From an uncultured Acidobacteriota bacterium (GTDB taxonomy: Bacteria; Acidobacteriota; Terriglobia; UBA7540), in NCBI GenBank assembly GCA_963825395.1, contig CAWGTQ010000016.1, forward strand, positions 388,269 to 452,268: a stretch of 64,000 bases of DNA. Direction: 5' to 3'. The position numbers and the translations under genes were made by a program. Under the pieces are notes generated by a model. It was not told the DNA's origin. It saw only the letters and a list, made by a program, of their open reading frames with translations, and made no database searches. The number at the start of each line of letters is the position of its first letter. Position 1 is the first letter of the stretch. This document shows, in pieces, positions 7,554 through 25,667 of the stretch.

Positions 7554-8945
7554 TTACAATTTTACCTGCTGAAGATAGGTCGGCACCGAAACATCCCAGT
7601 GGAGTTGCTGGGCAATGCGCTGCCGCAGAGCCTCGCTGGCCTTGGGTTCACCGTGAACCAAAAGGGTTTTCCCTGGCGTCTTGGCGAACCGGCCAAGCCA
7701 AGCAAGGATTTCACCATAATCCGCATGGGCACTCAGGTTCTCGATGGTCTCAATGCGCGCCCGCACGTGCACTTCGTGGCCGTACATTTTCACGGCCTGG
7801 GCGCCGGATTGGATCGCCTGCCCGCGCGTTCCCGCCGCCTGGAATCCCACGAATAGTATGGTATTGCGATGGTCCGGCAGGCAGCGTTCCAGATGATGAA
7901 CCACGCGGCCGCCCGTCGCCATGCCGCTCGCGGAAATGATAATCGTTGGGTAGTGCGCGTCGTTGAGCTGCTTCGACGCCTCGATAGTCCTGTCAAAGTG
8001 CAGATTGGGTGGGGAGAACGGCTTGATCCCCTGCTCTTCCAGTGCATCCAATTCCAGGCTGTGGTCCTCTCGGTGCTTGTCGTAAAGATGGGTGACGTCG
8101 ATCGCCATGGGGCTGTCCAAGTGGATCGGCAACGAGTGCATCTTCTTATCTTCGATGAGTTCACGGAACAAGAAGAGCAGTTCTTGCGTGCGTCCCACGG
8201 CGAAGGAGGGAATTACTAACGTCCCGCCGCGGCGGGCCGTGTCCTCAACAATCGAAGTCAGGCGCGCGCCAATATCTTCCTTCGGGTGCAACCGGTCGCC
8301 GTAGGTGGATTCGAGCAGCATGTAATCGAATCCGTCTTCAGGCACGGCTGGTTCAGGAATAACCATTTGCGGGAAGCGGCCCAGGTCGCCGGAGAAGAGC
8401 AGCTTCTTGCTGGTCCCGTTTTCCCGGACCGTCACTTCGATCATGCGCGCGCCCAGGATGTGTCCCGCGAAAAAGCCGCGTATCGTGAAGTGCGGGGAAA
8501 TCTCGACCCGCTCCACGGCGTACACCGCATGAATGCGTTCGAGCGACTTTACCGCCTCCTCATAGTTGTAGAGGGGCAGGGCGGGGGCGTGTTTGCTGAA
8601 TCCCTTTTTGTTTGCGAAGTCCGCATCTTCTTCCTGTAGGTGTCCGGAATCCGGCAACACAATTTTGGCAAGATCCACCGTGGCCGAAGACGCCAGGATC
8701 TGGCCGTGAAAGCCGTCCTTCACCAAGCGTGGAATGTAGCCGATGTGGTCGAGGTGCGCGTGCGTCAGGACGATCCATTGGATGCTCGCGGGCGGCACGG
8801 GCAGCGGATTCCAGTTGCGTAGCCGCAGTTCCTTGTCCCCCTGGAAGAGTCCGCAGTCAACCATCAAGCGTTCGCCGCCGGCTTCCAGCAGATATTTCGA
8901 ACCGGTTACCGTGCCGGTCGCACCGAGAAAAGTGAGAGTGGCCAT
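7554..8945 (-). CDS. MBL-fold metallo-hydrolase with beta-CASP / RNA-specificity domain (CPSF73/RNase J-like)
   Basis: This is a 463-aa ORF with THAHLDHIG (HxHxDH), ESTYGDR, and a C-terminal SAHADY...LVHGE. Confidence 0.85.
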   Translation of the reverse strand: MATLTFLGATGTVTGSKYLLEAGGERLMVDCGLFQGDKELRLRNWNPLPVPPASIQWIVLTHAHLDHIGYIPRLVKDGFHGQILASSATVDLAKIVLPDSGHLQEEDADFANKKGFSKHAPALPLYNYEEAVKSLERIHAVYAVERVEISPHFTIRGFFAGHILGARMIEVTVRENGTSKKLLFSGDLGRFPQMVIPEPAVPEDGFDYMLLESTYGDRLHPKEDIGARLTSIVEDTARRGGTLVIPSFAVGRTQELLFLFRELIEDKKMHSLPIHLDSPMAIDVTHLYDKHREDHSLELDALEEQGIKPFSPPNLHFDRTIEASKQLNDAHYPTIIISASGMATGGRVVHHLERCLPDHRNTILFVGFQAAGTRGQAIQSGAQAVKMYGHEVHVRARIETIENLSAHADYGEILAWLGRFAKTPGKTLLVHGEPKASEALRQRIAQQLHWDVSVPTYLQQVKL

Positions 8946-15135: not shown

Positions 15136-18492
<3,357 letters not shown>

Positions 18493-18653: not shown

Positions 18654-19226
18654 ATGCCCCACATCAAACTTTCGGACGAATTGCCCGGAATCGTAAGCCT
18701 TTTCGCGTTTCGCCCCGAGACGGCGAAGCCCCTGCGTGCGCTGGCGGAGGCTCTGCTGCGAGGACCCAGCACGCTCACGTCCGGTGAGCGCGAGTTGATC
18801 GCCACCTATGTTTCTTCCCGGAACGATTGCTACTTTTGCCAGACCAGCCATGGCGCGGCGGCCGCGCACCATTTCGGCGGCAACGAACAACTGATCGTGG
18901 AGGTAAAGCAGAACTTCGAAGTTGCGCCCATTTCCGCCAAGCTCAAGGCGCTGTTGGCCATTGCCGGTAAGGTCCAGTTGGGCGGGAAGAATGTCACCCC
19001 TGCGGACGTCGAGCGGGCGCGGCAGCAAGGTGCGACGGACCTGGAAATTCACGACACCGTGCTGATTGCCGCGGCCTTTTGCATGTACAACCGCTATGTG
19101 GACGGCCTGGGAACGTGGGCGCCTCGCAATGCCGACTTATACCGGCAGATGGGCGCCAGGATGGCCGATGAGGGTTACATCAAAGCGGACCCGCCCGCTG
19201 CCCGAGCGCAAACAACCGCCAAATAA
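18654..19226 (+). CDS. AhpD-like / carboxymuconolactone decarboxylase family peroxidase-related protein (CxxC)
   Basis: The ATG at 18654 follows GAGGAG. The redox motif is NDCYFCQTSH. It is a paralog of the next two genes. Confidence 0.8.
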   Translation: MPHIKLSDELPGIVSLFAFRPETAKPLRALAEALLRGPSTLTSGERELIATYVSSRNDCYFCQTSHGAAAAHHFGGNEQLIVEVKQNFEVAPISAKLKALLAIAGKVQLGGKNVTPADVERARQQGATDLEIHDTVLIAAAFCMYNRYVDGLGTWAPRNADLYRQMGARMADEGYIKADPPAARAQTTAK

Positions 19227-19241: not shown

Positions 19242-19781
19242 ATGCCTTACATCACGCTGCCCGAAGGTTTGCCGGGGATTCGCGGTCCCATGGCGTTCCG
19301 TCCCGAGACCGCGAAGCCGTTGAACCAACTCGTGGAGGTCCTGCTCCGTGGACCGAACACTCTCACGCCCGGTGAGCGCGAGCTCATCGCCACCTACGTT
19401 TCGTCGCAGAACGACTGTTTTTTCTGCCAGAACATCCACGGCGCAGTTGCCGCGTACCATCTGGGCGGGAACGAGAATCTGGTGTTGGATGTAAAGCGGA
19501 ACTACGAGGGTGCGCAAGTCTCCAGCAAACTCAAGGCGCTACTCGCCATCGCCGGGAAGGTGCAGCAGGGTGGCAAGCAGGTGAAGGCGGAAGACGTCGC
19601 CCGCGCCCGCCAGGAGGGGGCAACCGACCGGGAGATTCATGACACTGTGCTGATTGCCGCGGTCTTTTGCCTGGCCAACCGCTATGTGGACGGATTGGCA
19701 ACCTGGCAGCCCGACGATCCGGAAATGTACCGGGCGCGCGGCGCCAAGACCGCTCAGGAAGGGTATGGGAAGACGCCTTGA
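19242..19781 (+). CDS. AhpD-like / carboxymuconolactone decarboxylase family peroxidase-related protein (CxxC)
   Basis: The ATG at 19242 follows AAGGAG. The redox motif is NDCFFCQNIH. It is a tandem paralog of 18654..19226. Confidence 0.8.
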   Translation: MPYITLPEGLPGIRGPMAFRPETAKPLNQLVEVLLRGPNTLTPGERELIATYVSSQNDCFFCQNIHGAVAAYHLGGNENLVLDVKRNYEGAQVSSKLKALLAIAGKVQQGGKQVKAEDVARARQEGATDREIHDTVLIAAVFCLANRYVDGLATWQPDDPEMYRARGAKTAQEGYGKTP

Positions 19782-19933
19782 TGGGATCGAAGCTCCGCGG
19801 GAAGCATTAAGAGCAAGTCAATAGGCAAAGGACAAAAGTGCGAGACGGTTGCGGACAAAGGCTTTTCGCACCAGGGAGTTGAGATTCAAGCTTCGAAGGA
19901 TTCAAGCACCGGGGGTGGGGTCATCGAGCTTCA

Positions 19934-20335
19934 AGCCCCGGAGGGGCGGCATGATGTAGCCCACGGCGAGCCAGCCGTGGGCTGCGGATGGACTACGGGA
20001 TTCGAAAGCCCCGGAGGGGCGGCATCATGTGGCCCACGGCGAGCCACCCGTGGGAGAAACAAAGCCGAACGAGTTCTGAGCCCCGTAGGGGGCGCCATCA
20101 GAGACCGTTCACAGGGACTCGAGCCCGATCCGCGATAGGGTTCTGGCGGAAGAAATCCCCGATGCCGCCCCTACCGAGGCTGACAAAGTGGATATGCCTT
20201 TTGTTCCCCACGGCTGGCTCGCCGTGGGCCATAAGACGTCGCCGCTACGCGGCTTTAGATCACCCCGAAACTCTTAAGTTGGCGCTTTTGGGCTGTTGGC
20301 CTGGGCTGTAATAAGGCGCCCCTTTGGGGCTTGAA
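19934..20335. repeat. cluster of REP-E units (agccccggaggggcggcatgatgtagcccacggcgagccagccgtggg) in both orientations
   Basis: Near-identical units lie at 19934-19982 and 20007-20054, with a partial unit at 20079-20100. Inverted copies lie at 20157-20250 and 20307-20335. Confidence 0.65.
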
Positions 20336-20526
20336 GGCACCAATGCCCGGATAGAACCGCCCAGGCTGGGGAGAAGTCCGGGCTAGGAGCGTGTCGGAGA
20401 TAAGAGTTATTCGACGAAGAATCAATAACTTACAAGCATTGGCAAGCCGTTAAGTTGTTGATTCTACACACGGCAAGATTTATCTCAGGTAGGCTCCTAA
20501 TGTTGCGTAAGGAAAATGCGTTTACC

Positions 20527-20576
20527 GTAGCGCCGCCCTTTAGGGCGGCACATGCCGGGCTAAAGCCCAGCGCTAC
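20527..20576. repeat. REP-B copy
   Basis: It reads gtagcgccgccctttagggcggcacatgccgggctaaagcccagcgctac, that is two hairpins between GTAGCGC and GCGCTAC termini. Confidence 0.7.
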
Positions 20577-20702
20577 AACGAGTTGACATCCGTCGTATAA
20601 GTAAGCCTATTTTCCTTACGCAACACCAGGCCCCTAAGGCAAGAGGTTACGGTCGGCTAACGACTGAAAACTGACCACTGACAAGCTCTTCGAGGCGAAT
20701 TC

Positions 20703-21320
20703 ATGGACCCCAACAAACCCAAAATGCCGCCGATGTTCCTCCCCGAGGTCGAGAATAACCCGCAACGCGGTGGGCGGGGTGACATGATCCGCCAGATGCG
20801 GGACTCGGGGAAGGAATATCCGCAAATCTGGCACTTGTTCGCTTTTTGTCCGGAGGCAACGAACCATCTGGGCGGCTTTACGCAGGAGGTCATGCGCGGG
20901 AAGTCTCCGCTCACTCCGGGCCTGCGGGAGTTGATCGCCGCCTTCACATCGGCGGGGAACCACTGTCCGTTTTGAGCGAAATATCACGCCGCAGTTGCGG
21001 CGGAATTGCTGGGCAGTGAAGAGGTGGTGCGCGGGGCGATTGACGATCTGGAAAATTCCGCCCTTCCGGAAAAAGAAAAAGCTCTGCTGCGCTTTGTCAT
21101 CAAAGTGAACCATCGCGCGTGGGAAATTACTGCCGGCGATATGAAAGTTCTGTACGCAGCCGGCTGGACGGACGAAGCCATCTATAACGCCGTCACGGTG
21201 TGCGCGCTCTTCAATTTCTACAACCGCTGGATTGACGCCACGGGCGTACACGCCATGTCGGACGAGGCGCATCGGGAATTTGGAAAACGAACTGCCCTAC
21301 ATGGTTATAACCCTAAATAA
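20703..21320 (+). CDS. AhpD-like/CMD family protein with in-frame TGA at the second Cys of CxxC: candidate selenoprotein (CxxU)
   Basis: Track ORFs 20703..20975 and 21006..21320 share one frame, with only TGA (20973-20975) between them. The read-through sequence NHCPF[TGA]AKYHAAVAAE aligns with NDCYFCQTSHGAAAAH and NDCFFCQNIHGAVAAY in the two paralogs upstream. Confidence 0.6.
20976..21009 (+). promoter_or_regulatory. candidate bacterial SECIS hairpin
   Basis: The lower stem pairs GCGA (20976-79) with UUGC (21006-09). The upper stem is CGCCGC (20987-92), loop AGUU, GCGGCG (20997-21002). The apical loop contains GU and starts 17 nt after the UGA. Confidence 0.45.
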
Positions 21321-22536
21321 CGAGCCCGCTGCGGCGGTGAGCGAGTTCGACCGCGGCTATTACGGCTGGCGCGTGGTGCTGGCGGCGTGCCTTGGCGTGA
21401 TGGTGGGGTTTGGTTCACTGTATGTTTACACGTTCGGCGTCTTCATGAAACCCCTGAGCGCCGAATTCGGCTGGAGCCGTGAGGCCATTTCGCGCGGCTT
21501 CGGCCTCGCCGCCCTCTCGATGGCGGTGGGCTCACCCATCATCGGCACATGGCTTGACCGCTACGGGCCGCGCCGGATCATCCTTCCCTGCCTCGCGGTC
21601 TACGGTTGTGGCATCGCCTCGCTGGCCCTGTTGCGCCCGCACCTGTGGCAGTTTTATGCCACCTGTATTCTGCTGGGCGCAGTGGGCAATGGGGCGGCGC
21701 ACTTGGCCTATTCGCGCGCCATCTCCACTTGGTTTCACCAGCATTTAGGTATGGCCCTGGCATTGGTTATGGCGGGAGCAGGATTGGGCTCCATGATCCT
21801 TCCCTTCTTGGCCCAGACGATCATTAGCCGGGCGGGTTGGCGTGCGGCGTATCTATCCCTTGGGGGCCTGGCCTTGGTGGTGGGGCTGCCCTTGACCTGG
21901 CGTTATATCCACGAGCGCATGTCCGTAGAAGACGATTCGCCCGCGGCGCTCCTCTCGGGCCCTACCTGGCAGCAGGGACTGCGCTCATCTCCTTTTTGGA
22001 TCATCGTGGCCGTCCTCTTTGTGAGTTCGGTGAGCATGAACGGAACGATTACCCATCTGGCGGCATTGCTGACGGACCGAGGCATCACCCCCGGTGGCGC
22101 GGCGCTGAGCGCTTCCCTGCTTGGCGGCTCGAGTCTGGCGGGACGGCTGGCGGTAGGCTGGGCCCTGGACCGCTTTTTCGGAGCCCGCGTTGCTTGCGTG
22201 GTTTATCTGATCACCGCCGGAGGGATCCTCATGCTCGCTCGTGCCGGCACTCTCTTCGTGGGCTGCGTAGCTGCGGGGCTCATCGGAGTCGGGGCGGGCG
22301 GCGAGGCGGACATCACTCCCTATCTGCTAACCCGCTACTTCGGTGTGCACGCCTTCTCCACTCTTTACGGGATCACCTGGACTTTCTATGCCATCGCGGG
22401 CGCGATAGGTCCGGTAATTTTAGGGCGGGCATTTGACTCTACAGGGTCGTATACCTCGCTACTTACTCTCCTTGCCGTTACCGTGGTCCTCGCGGGCGCC
22501 CTGATGCTCCTCCTGCCACGTTACTCGAGCAAGTAG
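21301..22536 (+). CDS. MFS transporter (oxalate/formate antiporter-like)
   Basis: The ATG at 21301 overlaps the end of the AhpD-like gene by 20 nt. About 12 hydrophobic segments are visible, and the N-terminus GWRVVLAACLGVMVGFG is typical of the family. Confidence 0.8.
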   Translation: MVITLNNEPAAAVSEFDRGYYGWRVVLAACLGVMVGFGSLYVYTFGVFMKPLSAEFGWSREAISRGFGLAALSMAVGSPIIGTWLDRYGPRRIILPCLAVYGCGIASLALLRPHLWQFYATCILLGAVGNGAAHLAYSRAISTWFHQHLGMALALVMAGAGLGSMILPFLAQTIISRAGWRAAYLSLGGLALVVGLPLTWRYIHERMSVEDDSPAALLSGPTWQQGLRSSPFWIIVAVLFVSSVSMNGTITHLAALLTDRGITPGGAALSASLLGGSSLAGRLAVGWALDRFFGARVACVVYLITAGGILMLARAGTLFVGCVAAGLIGVGAGGEADITPYLLTRYFGVHAFSTLYGITWTFYAIAGAIGPVILGRAFDSTGSYTSLLTLLAVTVVLAGALMLLLPRYSSK

Positions 22537-22559
22537 CGCGGACCTGCGGTTCAAGGTCC

Positions 22560-22625
22560 GCGGCTTTTCACCCGGAATGACGCAATCAGGTTCAAATCTG
22601 CCTGCGCGCATCGAAGTTGTAGCGC
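22560..22625 (+). repeat. 66-nt direct repeat, copy 1, left flank of mazEF
   Basis: gcggcttttcacccggaatgacgcaatcaggttcaaatctgcctgcgcgcatcgaagttgtagcgc differs from copy 2 at only 3 positions. It is preceded by a half REP-A at 22534-22563. Confidence 0.75.
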
Positions 22626-22656
22626 AAGATGTTATATTGGAATATAATCGAAAGGA

Positions 22657-22920
22657 ATGGCTATGCACACAACCAATCTGCGCAAGGTCGGCGGCTCGGT
22701 CATGCTGGCGGTACCGCGCGCCGTGCTCAGCGTCCTGGGCTTGCGGGCGGGAACAAAGGTCGGCATTGTTATCGAACGCGGCCGGCTAGTGGTGGAGCCC
22801 CCAAAACGGCCCCGCTACACCCTCGACGAACTGCTCGCCCAGTGCGACTCCAAGGCCCGCCGCACGAAAGAGGAGCGGGAATGGCTGGATAGCAAGCCTG
22901 TGGGCCGGGAGCTGATCTGA
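22657..22920 (+). CDS. mazE: AbrB/MazE/PemI family antitoxin
   Basis: This 87-aa protein has a SpoVT/AbrB-like N-terminus (LRKVGGSVMLAVPRAVL) and an acidic C-terminus. Its stop overlaps the toxin start (ATGA at 22917-22922). Confidence 0.8.
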   Translation: MAMHTTNLRKVGGSVMLAVPRAVLSVLGLRAGTKVGIVIERGRLVVEPPKRPRYTLDELLAQCDSKARRTKEEREWLDSKPVGRELI

Positions 22921-23252
22921 TGAGGCGTGGCGAAATCTGGGTGGTGGGCCTTGATCCTGCCGAAGGACACGAGCAAAAGGGCCGACGCCCTGTCTTGGTC
23001 ATCTCCCCCGATGCCTTTAACCAGGTCACCAAGGTGCCCGTGGTTCTCCCCATTACCAGCGGCGGGAATTTCGCGCGGACCGCCGGATTTGCGGTATCTC
23101 TGACCGGCGCCGGTACTAAAACCACCGGCGTTGTCCGTTGCGACCAGCCCCGCGCGCTGGATCTCGGCGCGCGCAACGGCAGAAAGCTGGAAAACGTACC
23201 CGATGCGATTATGGACGAGGTTTTGGCGAAGGTAGCGACAATTCTTGAGTGA
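22920..23252 (+). CDS. mazF: MazF/PemK family endoribonuclease toxin
   Basis: This 110-aa protein carries RRGEIWVVGLDPAEGHEQKGRRPVLVISPDAFN and VVLPITS, which is the typical PemK fold signature. Confidence 0.85.
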   Translation: MRRGEIWVVGLDPAEGHEQKGRRPVLVISPDAFNQVTKVPVVLPITSGGNFARTAGFAVSLTGAGTKTTGVVRCDQPRALDLGARNGRKLENVPDAIMDEVLAKVATILE

Positions 23253-23331
23253 GTCAGATATGCTGTTTCAATTAGCTCAGGAAGATGCCGATACCGCGGA
23301 CCGCAGTGAAACGCGTATTCTTCGTTCCTCA

Positions 23332-23397
23332 GCGGCTTTTCATCCGGAATGACGCAATGAGGTTCAAATCCGCCTGCGCGCATCGAAGTTGTAGCGC
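23332..23397 (+). repeat. 66-nt direct repeat, copy 2, right flank of mazEF
   Basis: It reads gcggcttttcatccggaatgacgcaatgaggttcaaatccgcctgcgcgcatcgaagttgtagcgc and merges into a full REP-A. Confidence 0.75.
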
Positions 23398-23471
23398 GTC
23401 CTGTTCTGTAGGTCCGCGGCTCGTTCCCTAAATGCAAGGAAAGGCCGCGCACCTACAGAACAGGTGGCCAC
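23391..23471. repeat. REP-A palindromic element
   Basis: It reads gtagcgcgtcctgttctgtaggtccgcggc ... gccgcgcacctacagaacaggtggccac. Confidence 0.75.
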
Positions 23472-24264: not shown

Positions 24265-24331
24265 AAGGTCCGCGACTCGTTCCCTACGGGGGAAGGAAAG
24301 GCCGCGGACCTACAGAACAGGTCCGCGCTAC
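24265..24331. repeat. REP-A element (left arm truncated)
   Basis: It reads aaggtccgcgactcgttccc...ggccgcggacctacagaacaggtccgcgctac. Confidence 0.7.
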
Positions 24332-25511: not shown

Positions 25512-25594
25512 GTAGTGCGACCTGTTCTGTAGGTCCGCGGCTTTTCCTTGCCCATAGGATACGAGCCGCGGACCTACAGAACAGGTCGCGCTAC
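25512..25594. repeat. REP-A element, best-preserved copy
   Basis: It reads gtagtgcgacctgttctgtaggtccgcggc-ttttccttgcccataggatacga-gccgcggacctacagaacaggtcgcgctac. Confidence 0.8.
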
Positions 25595-25667
25595 ACCAGT
25601 TCCCAAGCTTCGCACGGGACGCCGGCATCCGTTTGCGGACGGCGACACAACCGGGGCTGGCATGGCA

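What the first reader, a model, noticed from the sequence alone, without database searches (positions are those of the whole stretch)
20703..21320. In-frame TGA on the second Cys of the CxxC motif of an AhpD-like paralog, followed by a SECIS-like hairpin: candidate selenoprotein
Seen in the sequence: the track splits this locus into 20703..20975 and 21006..21320, but both pieces share one frame. The only stop between them is TGA at 20973-20975. Reading through gives ...FTSAGNHCPF[TGA]AKYHAAVAAELLGSEE.... The two tandem paralogs just upstream read ...NDCYFCQTSHGAAAAHHFGG and ...NDCFFCQNIHGAVAAYHLGG, so the TGA sits exactly on the second redox Cys (CxxC becomes CxxU). Eleven nt downstream lies a perfect hairpin, CGCCGC-AGUU-GCGGCG (20987-21002), with a lower stem GCGA/UUGC. 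Its GU-containing apical loop starts 17 nt after the UGA, which fits bacterial SECIS geometry. The equivalent codons in paralog 2 (cggcgc-agtt-gccgcg) pair at only 4 of 6 positions, so the stem is specifically improved in the TGA copy. Established knowledge: AhpD-like/CMD-family selenoproteins with Sec in the redox motif occur in bacterial selenoproteomes, often next to Cys paralogs. Inference: this is a recoded Sec gene, not a nonsense pseudogene.
Basis: partly seen in the sequence, partly recalled or inferred. Interest (0 to 1): 0.8.

Follow-up and report, generated by a model that had tools for sequence, protein, structure and literature searches.

The report
AhpD-like selenoprotein gene with SECIS
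The "split" gene at 20703-21320 is one intact gene for an AhpD-like redox enzyme whose in-frame UGA almost certainly encodes selenocysteine; this is a real but already known kind of selenoprotein that public annotation cuts in two.

Summary
The Sec reading is strongly supported. Window 20703-21320 (+) is one frame with a single internal stop, TGA at 20973-20975, on the second Cys of C-P-F-C. The joined protein scores above NCBIfam's cut-off for TIGR01926, which a 2026 review lists as the "AhpD-like protein, CxxU" selenoprotein family.

All 80 best-matching species genomes (Bryobacterales and other Terriglobia) and two metagenome contigs carry TGA at this same codon. Each keeps about 114 open codons after it, under purifying selection (dN/dS 0.14).

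The hairpin CGCCGC-(A/G)GU(U/C)-GCGGCG starts 11 nt after the UGA in all 83 sequences. It shows compensatory synonymous changes at three pairs. The homologous site in 16 Cys copies keeps only 3-6 of 7 pairs.

TGA also ends this same gene in 17 of 83 orthologs, so the code is standard.

Two points fall short. No sel genes or tRNA-Sec lie in the window, and the rest of the genome could not be searched. The only machinery evidence is at the taxon level: Solibacter usitatus has SelA, SelB and Sec-FdhA, and SelA is common in Bryobacteraceae MAGs.

Verdict: a new member of a known kind. Its value is mainly for annotation.

The parts
20703..21320 (+). Complete AhpD-like (TIGR01926/CMD) selenoprotein gene: 205 sense codons including Sec91, terminal TAA at 21318-21320
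   Evidence: Single frame with one internal TGA. Pfam CMD 45.5 bits; NCBIfam TIGR01926 92.7 bits against a cut-off of 81.8. Orthologs L004 and L005 align over residues 1-205. GAGG lies 8 nt upstream of the ATG at 20703 (read from the sequence).
20964..20975 (+). Redox motif codons TGT CCG TTT TGA = Cys88-Pro-Phe-Sec91 (CxxU)
   Evidence: C88, P89 and F90 are invariant in the alignment of 20. The fourth codon is TGA in 83 of 83 orthologs.
20973..20975 (+). UGA read as selenocysteine (Sec91)
   Evidence: TGA at the homologous codon in all 80 genome loci and 2 metagenome contigs. It aligns with Cys in Cys orthologs and paralogs.
20976..20986 (+). 11-nt spacer between the UGA and the SECIS hairpin
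   Evidence: The length is invariant because the region is an ungapped coding alignment. E. coli fdhF has the same 11-nt spacing.
20987..21002 (+). SECIS upper hairpin: 6-bp stem CGCCGC/GCGGCG with loop AGUU. GU is invariant and the loop-flanking A..U covaries with G..C in orthologs.
   Evidence: 98.7% of cells paired over 7 pairs; 3 pairs carry compensatory changes; slid controls give 28-82%. At least 11 independent AU<->GC switches on the tree. Synonymous-site variability drops here. Covariance model: 64.2 bits here, 52.8 bits on a gene left out of training, 19-27 bits on Cys orthologs.
20928..20930 (+). Glu76, 12 residues before Cys88 (the position of Glu118 in the M. tuberculosis AhpD proton relay)
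   Evidence: Invariant in orthologs. The spacing matches the AhpD relay Glu118/Cys130/Cys133/His137 described in PMC3141380. The functional role is inferred.
20985..20987 (+). His95, 4 residues after Sec91 (the position of AhpD His137). Its third base is also the first base of the SECIS stem.
   Evidence: His in 83 of 83. CAC 76 / CAT 7; four of the seven CAT pair with a compensating GCA at the stem's 3' end (TA:4), the other three are U-U mismatches (TT:3).
18654..19226 (+). Context: Cys paralog 1 (CYFC), about 34% identical to the Sec protein
19242..19781 (+). Context: Cys paralog 2 (CFFC)
   Evidence: The homologous 'hairpin' has 5 of 7 pairs and a model score of 10.7 bits.
21301..22536 (+). 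Context: MFS transporter gene overlapping the 3' end of the selenoprotein gene (callers start it at TTG 21280); probably co-transcribed
   Evidence: Pfam MFS_1 134 bits; NCBIfam L-lactate and oxalate/formate MFS families, below their cut-offs. A homologous MFS gene lies immediately downstream in 32 of 81 loci. The same arrangement occurs next to Cys orthologs.
15136..18492 (+). Context: TonB-dependent receptor (CarboxypepD_reg-Plug-barrel) at the head of the cluster
   Evidence: Pfam. A homolog lies within about 4.5 kb of the Sec gene in 18 of 81 loci. The same gene order occurs in Cys-ortholog locus L083.

Best explanation
Window 20703-21320 encodes one 205-residue AhpD-like protein (NCBIfam TIGR01926 'peroxidase-related enzyme', CMD superfamily). 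Residue 91 is selenocysteine.

Decoding. During translation the UGA at 20973-20975 is not read as stop. The mRNA just downstream folds into a short GC-rich hairpin (20987-21002, beginning 11 nt after the UGA). This hairpin displays an invariant G-U dinucleotide at its tip. That is the geometry of a bacterial SECIS element. It recruits SelB carrying Sec-tRNA(Sec) to the ribosome.

Chemistry. The product carries Glu76...Cys88-Pro-Phe-Sec91...His95. This has the same spacing as the Glu...CxxC...His proton relay of AhpD, and the motif sits at the N-terminus of a helix. The selenol of Sec91 most likely acts as the attacking nucleophile in a thiol/selenol oxidoreductase cycle: it forms a selenenylsulfide with Cys88, which a cellular reductant then reduces.

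What is shown and what is inferred. Shown here: the single frame, family membership, UGA conservation, selection on the downstream half, and the conserved, covarying hairpin. Inferred: SelB-dependent Sec insertion, the catalytic role of Sec91, and the substrate. The gene sits in a cluster with two Cys paralogs, a TonB-dependent receptor and an overlapping MFS transporter gene. This suggests a role tied to an imported compound, but the substrate is unknown.
For: Frame and family
- One frame, one internal TGA.
- TIGR01926 at 92.7 bits against a cut-off of 81.8; Pfam CMD.
- TIGR01926 is listed as 'AhpD-like protein, CxxU' among predicted prokaryotic selenoprotein families (PMC13188914).
- AhpD-like COG2128 with CxxU is reported in PMC1088965 and PMC2398784.

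Orthologs
- TGA at the same codon in 80 of 80 species-representative genomes and 2 JGI contigs, at 63-83% amino-acid identity.
- 113-126 open codons after the TGA with a conserved C-terminus in all 83.
- dN/dS is 0.137 downstream and 0.209 upstream.
- No conserved restart codon follows the TGA.
- TGA is the ordinary terminator of this same gene in 17 of 83 orthologs.

Hairpin
- Present in 83 of 83 sequences. 98.7% of cells are paired.
- Compensatory changes: CG<->UA at two pairs and AU(42)<->GC(37) with no mismatch at the loop-flanking pair.
- At least 11 and at least 4 independent switches on a tree.
- Synonymous variability is lowest at codons -3..+12.
- Homologous sites in 16 Cys copies keep only 3-6 of 7 pairs, even where the peptide is similar.
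- A covariance model gives 47.7-64.2 bits on the 9 TGA genes in the 12 sources it searched. One of these, the L091 domain 1 gene, was left out of training (52.8 bits). Cys copies score at most 27 bits.

Comparisons
- Geometry equals E. coli fdhF: the upper hairpin starts at nt 15 and GU lies in the loop.
- Cys ortholog P0012 sits in the same TonB-CMD-CMD-CMD-MFS gene order.
- A model of that ortholog has pLDDT 93.5. It places the CxxC at a helix N-terminus and matches AhpD-like structures at TM 0.69-0.80.

Taxon-level machinery
- The supplement of PMC1794560 holds Solibacter usitatus SelA, SelB and two Sec-containing FdhA.
- Many homologs 72-90% identical to SelA were found, several named as from Bryobacteraceae or Acidobacteriia MAGs.
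Against: - No selA, selB, selD or tRNA-Sec in the 64-kb window or in 1.42 Mb of related loci. The rest of this genome could not be searched, so the machinery is not shown for this organism.
- No protein-level evidence exists.
- The hairpin lacks the bulged U that E. coli SelB needs.
- The lower stem is not conserved.
- Rfam has no model that matches.
- The peptide HAAVAAELL is itself conserved, so part of the nucleotide conservation is a protein constraint. The synonymous-site covariation is not.
Confidence: 0.93

Rival explanations
1. The UGA is read through or suppressed by something other than the Sec system. Candidates are near-cognate Trp/Cys/Arg insertion, or one of the unusual allo-tRNA or tRNA(Sec)-like tRNAs described in Acidobacteria and other bacteria. 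Position 91 would then be a standard amino acid.
For: [quoted passage not shown]
- The sel machinery is not demonstrated for this genome.
Against: - The codon aligns exactly with a redox Cys of a family already known to use Sec at this position.
- A hairpin with SECIS geometry and an invariant GU loop is under selection at synonymous sites. A general suppressor would not need it.
- TGA still ends the same gene in 17 of 83 orthologs.
- SelA is widespread in the same order.
Confidence: 0.04
2. It is a genuinely split gene. Translation ends at the TGA, giving a 90-residue N-fragment. A separate C-fragment starts at TTG 21006. This is how public annotation treats it. The hairpin would then serve coupling or mRNA stability.
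For: - Gene callers produce 90-aa and 104-aa products.
- The 90-aa product sits in a 67-member cluster at 90% identity.
Against: - No start codon is conserved after the TGA. At codons +11 and +12, only 31 and 25 of 83 sequences have a start-type codon.
- The CxxC helix and AhpD fold would be cut at the active site.
- Cys orthologs are single chains of about 200 residues.
- The JGI full-length products are the same gene with the TGA translated as W.
Confidence: 0.02
3. It is a nonsense pseudogene of a Cys-type AhpD-like paralog, made dispensable by the two intact paralogs upstream.
For: Two Cys paralogs lie upstream. NCBI, ENA and some JGI records annotate only fragments.
Against: - The same TGA is present in 83 of 83 orthologs from at least 80 species.
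- There is no second lesion.
- Purifying selection is stronger downstream than upstream of the TGA.
- The paralogs are only about 34% identical to it, so they are not redundant copies.
Confidence: 0.01

Closest known systems
AhpD-like protein selenoprotein family (COG2128 / NCBIfam TIGR01926, motif CxxU). First predicted in the Sargasso Sea and GOS metagenomes; listed in the 2026 AEM review.
   Same: Scores above the TIGR01926 cut-off. Sec replaces the second Cys of CxxC. A small GU/G-containing hairpin lies downstream of the UGA. Cys homologs are widespread.
   Different: This clade is from soil and peat Acidobacteriota (Bryobacterales and other Terriglobia), whereas the described examples are mostly marine metagenome reads. 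Here the UGA form is fixed in all 80 closest species. The gene sits with an MFS transporter, a TonB-dependent receptor and, in some genomes, Cys paralogs.
E. coli fdhF SECIS element (the SelB-binding upper hairpin)
   Same: 11-nt spacer. The upper hairpin begins at nt 15 counted from the U of UGA. G-U lies at the tip, flanked by complementary bases: fdhF has A-GGUC-U, here C-(A/G)GU(U/C)-G.
   Different: No bulged U17. A perfect 6-7 bp GC-rich stem. GU at nt 22-23 instead of 23-24. No conserved lower stem. Binding by an acidobacterial SelB is untested.
AhpD of Mycobacterium tuberculosis and PA0269 of Pseudomonas aeruginosa (characterised AhpD proteins with a CxxC proton relay)
   Same: The spacing Glu(-12)...Cys-x-x-Cys...His(+4) is reproduced as Glu76, Cys88, Sec91, His95. 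All are conserved.
   Different: Phe90 replaces His132 (Tyr50 in PA0269). The fold match to M. tuberculosis AhpD is poor (TM 0.32-0.48), whereas PA0269-type and TIGR01926-type structures match well. No ahpC was identified among the neighbouring genes that were examined.
Solved TIGR01926-type structures: 6k40 (D. radiodurans alkyl hydroperoxide reductase AhpD), 2pfx, 2oyo, 2prr, 3c1l
   Same: Sequence E-values of 1e-14 to 2e-13, with CxxC aligned to CPF(U). The model of Cys ortholog P0012 matches at TMq 0.67-0.72 and TMt 0.76-0.80.
   Different: All are Cys proteins. Most are structural-genomics entries without a known substrate.
Other AhpD-related selenoprotein models: NF041238 (AhpD_rel_CFYUT), NF041047 (distant AhpD homolog), NF041537 (ArsM/AhpD)
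   Same: The same superfamily and the same CxxU logic.
   Different: Scores of 35.5 bits against a cut-off of 175, or no hit, so this is not a member of those families.

Membership tests
AhpD-like selenoprotein family (TIGR01926 / COG2128, CxxU) | Protein matches the family HMM above the curated cut-off | tested here: met
   92.7 bits against a cut-off of 81.8, residues 25-182 on profile positions 15-173 of 178. The query had Cys substituted for Sec.
AhpD-like selenoprotein family (TIGR01926 / COG2128, CxxU) | In-frame UGA aligned with the second Cys of the CxxC redox motif of Cys homologs | tested here: met
   CPF-TGA against CPFC, CEFC, CYFC and so on.
AhpD-like selenoprotein family (TIGR01926 / COG2128, CxxU) | UGA and downstream reading frame conserved in orthologs (TGA/Cys pairs, no further lesions) | tested here: met
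   83 of 83 TGA; 113-126 open codons downstream; dN/dS 0.137.
AhpD-like selenoprotein family (TIGR01926 / COG2128, CxxU) | Selenium actually incorporated at the UGA | not testable with these tools
   Needs 75Se labelling or mass spectrometry.
AhpD-like selenoprotein family (TIGR01926 / COG2128, CxxU) | Host genome encodes SelA, SelB, SelD and tRNA-Sec | tested here: inconclusive
   None in the 64-kb window or in 1.42 Mb of related loci. Taxon-level evidence is positive: S. usitatus SelA, SelB and Sec-FdhA and abundant Bryobacteraceae SelA. No SelA hit could be placed on the same contig as a UGA locus.
Bacterial SECIS element (fdhF type) | Hairpin immediately downstream of the UGA, with the upper stem-loop about 11 nt away | tested here: met
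   The stem starts at nt 15 from the U of UGA in 83 of 83 sequences; fdhF is the same.
Bacterial SECIS element (fdhF type) | Small apical loop with conserved G (GU) | tested here: met
   The loop is AGUU (45) or GGUC (38). G and U are invariant.
Bacterial SECIS element (fdhF type) | Structure maintained by compensatory change | tested here: met
   3 of 7 pairs have double changes. 0 of 500 shuffles reach the observed pairing or covariation score. Slid registers give 28-82% paired. The switches are repeated and independent.
Bacterial SECIS element (fdhF type) | Bulged U in the 5' strand of the upper stem (U17 of E. coli) | tested here: not met
   The stem is perfect and has no bulge. This feature is known from E. 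coli; whether it is required in other phyla was not established here.
Bacterial SECIS element (fdhF type) | Binds SelB and directs Sec insertion | not testable with these tools
   Needs binding or reporter assays.
AhpD (alkylhydroperoxidase D, AhpC-recycling enzyme) | Glu...CxxC...His proton-relay residues | tested here: met
   Glu76, Cys88, Sec91 and His95 have the spacing of Glu118, Cys130, Cys133 and His137. The His132 position is Phe.
AhpD (alkylhydroperoxidase D, AhpC-recycling enzyme) | AhpD-like all-helical fold | tested here: met
   The model of Cys ortholog P0012 has pLDDT 93.5. TMq/TMt are 0.67-0.72/0.76-0.80 to 6k40, 2prr, 2oyo, 2pfx and 3c1l, but only 0.32-0.48 to M. tuberculosis AhpD. 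The window protein itself could not be submitted.
AhpD (alkylhydroperoxidase D, AhpC-recycling enzyme) | Works with AhpC (genetic linkage or activity) | tested here: not met
   The neighbours are a TonB-dependent receptor, two CMD paralogs, an MFS transporter and a MazEF pair. No peroxiredoxin was identified among the ORFs examined. Activity was not tested.

The most novel reading that the evidence does not exclude
This gene represents a very large clade of soil Acidobacteriota (Bryobacterales and other Terriglobia; all 80 closest species) in which selenocysteine, not cysteine, is the fixed state of an AhpD-like enzyme.

The clade has an almost invariant SECIS variant: a 7-bp stem presenting a bare G-U dinucleotide, with no bulged U. 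It also has a recurrent operon link to an MFS transporter and a TonB-dependent receptor.

On that reading the enzyme is not an AhpC recycler. It would process an imported small molecule using selenol chemistry, for example a reductive dehalogenation or detoxification like the fold relative Bmp8. Selenium use would then be a general and overlooked trait of one of the most abundant soil bacterial orders.
Probability: 0.25. Interest if true: 0.5.

Novelty: new member of a known kind. Interest (0 to 1): 0.3.

Why it matters
Annotation. Public records cut this gene into a 90-residue "peroxidase", "alkylhydroperoxidase family enzyme" or "hypothetical protein" and a 104-residue fragment. The 90-residue piece sits in a 67-member cluster at 90% identity. 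Alternatively, records translate the UGA as Trp. A simple rule would repair hundreds of records in Acidobacteriota: TIGR01926 hit + C-x-x-TGA + N11 + CGCCGC-RGUY-GCGGCG.

Biology. The result indicates that many Bryobacterales and Terriglobia probably use selenocysteine in a redox enzyme, which bears on selenium demand in soils. The 83-sequence alignment is also a clean natural covariation data set for a non-enterobacterial SECIS. It does not reveal a new mechanism.

Tried and rejected
- tRNA-Sec. ARAGORN found no tRNA-Sec in the window or in 60 related loci.
- sel genes. tblastn with E. coli SelA, SelB and SelD against the window plus 1.42 Mb of loci gave one weak hit, in L008. It proved to be a HypE-like PurM-family ORF, not SelD. 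NCBIfam scans of 28 window ORFs found no sel genes. The TonB receptor is not the FCYXU selenoprotein type.
- Same-genome link. I took the S. usitatus SelA sequence from a paper supplement, searched for homologs, and compared their contig lengths and records with those of the UGA loci. None matched.
- Rfam. No SECIS family matches.
- Lower stem GCGA/UUGC. Rejected as part of the element because those columns do not pair in orthologs.
- Other selenoprotein genes in the window. A screen for in-frame TGA with open flanks and a hairpin of at least 6 bp returned 6 sites. Only 20973 joins two pieces of one protein family. The others were not pursued.
Structure prediction of the Cys-substituted window protein; cluster look-up with a 'U' residue; P0001 not on record; no DNA for P0078.
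- Code reassignment (TGA = Trp, as JGI translations suggest). Rejected because TGA ends the same gene in 17 of 83 orthologs.
Full report
**What is in the window.**
The stretch 20703-21320 (+) is listed as two ORFs, 20703..20975 (90 aa) and 21006..21320 (104 aa), in the same frame. Translating it straight through gives 205 sense codons and one internal stop, TGA at 20973-20975. The local sequence is ...RELIAAFTSAGNHCPF*AKYHAAVAAELLGSEE.... With Cys in place of the stop, the protein matches Pfam CMD (PF02627, 45.5 bits). It also matches NCBIfam TIGR01926 'peroxidase-related enzyme' at 92.7 bits, above the curated cut-off of 81.8.

Two tandem CMD genes upstream (18654-19226 and 19242-19781) carry CYFC and CFFC at the aligned position. 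They are only about 34% identical to this protein.

The hairpin CGCCGC-AGTT-GCGGCG lies at 20987-21002, 11 nt after the TGA. The surrounding 71 nt fold at -28.1 kcal/mol (z = -2.74).

**Orthologs carry the same TGA.**
A protein search returned about 2,500 relatives. About two dozen of the best 120 are JGI proteins with 'CPFW' at the motif. For two of them I fetched the DNA. The 'W' is a TGA in an otherwise open frame of 198-205 codons.

I then scanned one genome per bacterial species. The 80 best loci were nearly all Bryobacterales, Bryobacteraceae, Solibacteraceae or otherwise unclassified Terriglobia or Acidobacteriota MAGs, at 63-83% identity. All 80 have TGA at exactly this codon.

- In all 83 sequences the frame stays open for 113-126 codons after the TGA. 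It ends in a conserved ...KRxAxHGY... C-terminus.
- For pairs with unsaturated dS, median dN/dS is 0.209 upstream of the TGA. It is 0.137 downstream, with the hairpin codons left out.
- No start-type codon is conserved after the TGA.
- The same gene ends in TGA in 17 of the 83 orthologs. TGA is therefore an ordinary stop in these genomes, and the JGI 'W' is an annotation artefact.

These results exclude a pseudogene, a split gene and a reassigned code.

**The hairpin is under selection as RNA.**
The 45 nt from the TGA onward align without gaps. The stem CGCCGC/GCGGCG and the G-U in the loop are present in all 83 sequences.

With seven pairs counted (columns 15-21 with 24-30), 98.7% of cells form a standard pair. 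Registers slid by 1-3 columns give 28-82%. None of 500 column shuffles reaches the observed pairing or covariation score.

Three pairs change on both sides, always through synonymous substitutions:

| Pair | Change | Counts |
|---|---|---|
| Outermost pair | C-G to U-A (His CAC to CAT with Ala GCG to GCA) | 4 U-A among 83 sequences |
| Fourth pair | C-G to U-A (Ala GCC to GCT with GCG to GCA) | 5 sequences |
| Loop-flanking bases | A..U or G..C | A..U 45, G..C 38 of 83, never mixed |

On a neighbour-joining tree built from the protein without the hairpin codons, the loop-flanking switch needs at least 11 independent events. The fourth-pair switch needs at least 4.

Synonymous-codon variability along the gene is lowest at codons -3 to +12. 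Normalised entropy there is 0.45-0.53, against 0.62-0.87 elsewhere.

The homologous sites of 16 Cys-type orthologs and paralogs keep only 3-6 of the 7 pairs. This holds even where the peptide is nearly the same, such as HVAVAAEML or HAAVTAELL.

A covariance model built from the alignment gave these scores:

| Target | Score (bits) |
|---|---|
| This window | 64.2 |
| A TGA gene not used for training (L091) | 52.8 |
| Cys orthologs | 19-27 |
| Cys paralogs | at most 15 |

**Comparison with a known SECIS.**
I read E. coli fdhF from the annotated genome. After its UGA (codon 140) come 11 nt. The upper hairpin spans nt 15-31, with loop GGUC (G23, U24) closed by A21-U26. A review gives the same description: an upper stem-loop 11 nt from the UGA, nt 15-31, with essential U17, G23 and U24 (PMC8659212).

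Here the hairpin also starts at nt 15. The loop is (A/G)GU(U/C), with GU at nt 22-23. There is no bulged U. It therefore works like an fdhF-type SECIS but is a simpler, perfectly paired variant.

**What the protein is.**
- The closest solved structures by sequence are TIGR01926-type proteins: 2pfx, 2oyo, 2prr, 3c1l and D. radiodurans AhpD 6k40. E-values run from 1e-14 to 2e-13, with CxxC aligned to CPF(U).
I therefore modelled the Cys ortholog P0012, which is 66% identical and sits in the same gene order. The model has pLDDT 93.5, is all-helical, and places the CxxC at the N-terminus of helix 90-104.
- That model matches those structures at TMq 0.67-0.72 and TMt 0.76-0.80. It matches M. tuberculosis AhpD only at 0.32-0.48. 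The debrominase Bmp8 is a weaker fold relative.
- Glu76, Cys88, Sec91 and His95 reproduce the spacing of the AhpD proton relay Glu118, Cys130, Cys133 and His137 (PMC3141380). All four are conserved in orthologs.
- That Sec91 is the attacking nucleophile is my inference. It rests on the usual behaviour of Sec in CxxU proteins and on my recollection that Cys133 is the nucleophile in AhpD.

**Genomic context.**
The cluster reads: TonB-dependent receptor (15136-18492), two Cys paralogs, the Sec gene, then an MFS transporter whose start (21280 or 21301) overlaps the Sec gene's end.

- A homologous MFS gene follows the Sec gene in 32 of 81 loci.
- A homologous TonB-dependent receptor lies within about 4.5 kb in 18 of 81 loci.
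- Tandem Cys paralogs occur in 9 loci.
- The Cys ortholog P0012 has the same TonB-CMD-CMD-CMD-MFS order.
- No peroxiredoxin gene was identified among the window ORFs examined.

**Selenocysteine machinery.**
The window has no tRNA. No tRNA-Sec was found in 60 related loci. tblastn with E. coli SelA, SelB and SelD found nothing in the window or in 1.42 Mb of loci, apart from a HypE-like ORF. NCBIfam scans of 28 window ORFs found no sel genes.

Sixty-four kilobases is about 1% of such a genome, so this says little. I could not search the remainder.

At the taxon level the evidence is positive:

- Zhang et al. 2006 count 3 selenoprotein families and 4 selenoproteins in Acidobacteria.
- Their supplement holds Solibacter usitatus SelA, SelB and two Sec-containing FdhA sequences.
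- With that SelA as query, the 120 best hits are 72-100% identical. They include proteins that NCBI names as from Bryobacteraceae and Acidobacteriia MAGs.
- None could be placed on the same contig as a UGA locus.

**Novelty.**
AhpD-like (COG2128) proteins with CxxU were predicted as selenoproteins in 2005. They are among the most abundant families in ocean metagenomes. The 2026 review lists 'AhpD-like protein, TIGR01926, CxxU'.

This gene is thus a new member of a known kind. What is less appreciated is how uniform the UGA form is across soil Acidobacteriota, and that public records split it. The 90-aa piece sits in a 67-member cluster named 'peroxidase', 'alkylhydroperoxidase family enzyme' or 'hypothetical protein'; the 104-aa piece sits in a separate cluster. 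Other records translate the UGA as Trp.

In the paper library I found nothing linking selenocysteine with Bryobacter, Solibacter usitatus or Acidobacteriota apart from one incidental mention; the 2006 comparative paper came from my earlier searches.

**Verdict.**
I put about 0.93 on the UGA being decoded as selenocysteine through the hairpin. Interest is modest (0.3): the finding is correct and useful for annotation, but it would not surprise a specialist.

Noticed in passing
window 19782-20702: The 921-nt spacer between Cys paralog 2 and the Sec gene is packed with repeats. It holds four Acido-Lenti-1 RNA motif copies: 19934-19981 (-) at 46.8 bits, above the gathering score, and 20007-20054 (-), 20207-20254 (+) and 20300-20331 (+) below it. 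It also holds nested inverted repeats. A strain variant (L088) has only an 18-nt spacer at the same junction, so this looks like an inserted mobile or repeat element.
   Followed up: partly
L091:2083-3363: A JGI soil contig encodes a 426-codon tandem fusion of two AhpD-like domains. Domain 1 has CPF-TGA followed by the same hairpin (cacgccgcggtcgcggcgg). Domain 2 has CRYC. Database proteins P0001, P0003, P0005 and P0008 (323-336 aa) are this gene called from just after the TGA.
   Followed up: yes
P0002, P0004, P0006 and others (JGI); P0121-P0139: The same gene is annotated inconsistently. Some JGI products are full-length with Trp at the UGA. NCBI, ENA and other JGI records hold a 90-aa and a 104-aa fragment. 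The 90-aa cluster has 67 members at 90% identity.
   Followed up: yes
window 22557-23412: A MazE/MazF (PemK) toxin-antitoxin pair lies at 22657-22920 and 22920-23252. Pfam scores are 28.4 and 104.2 bits. It is bracketed by an 84-nt direct repeat, 22557-22640 and 23329-23412, at 87% identity.
   Followed up: partly
window 23390-23468, 24289-24323, 25512-25595: A palindromic repeat containing GACCTACAGAACAGGTC recurs in intergenic positions, as direct and inverted copies at 89-97% identity. It is probably a REP-like element.
   Followed up: no
window 7554-8945 (-): A 463-aa metallo-beta-lactamase/beta-CASP ribonuclease. Its best NCBIfam hits are 'type VII CRISPR-associated protein Cas14' (344.5 bits, cut-off 800) and archaeal aCPSF1 (253 bits, cut-off 580). 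Both are far below cut-off.
   Followed up: no
window 21280-22536 and 32 of 81 related loci: An MFS transporter gene overlaps or directly follows the AhpD-like Sec gene. Its nearest NCBIfam families are L-lactate and oxalate/formate transporters, below cut-off. It also follows the Cys orthologs. A TonB-dependent receptor lies within about 4.5 kb in 18 of 81 loci. This may point to the enzyme's substrate.
   Followed up: partly
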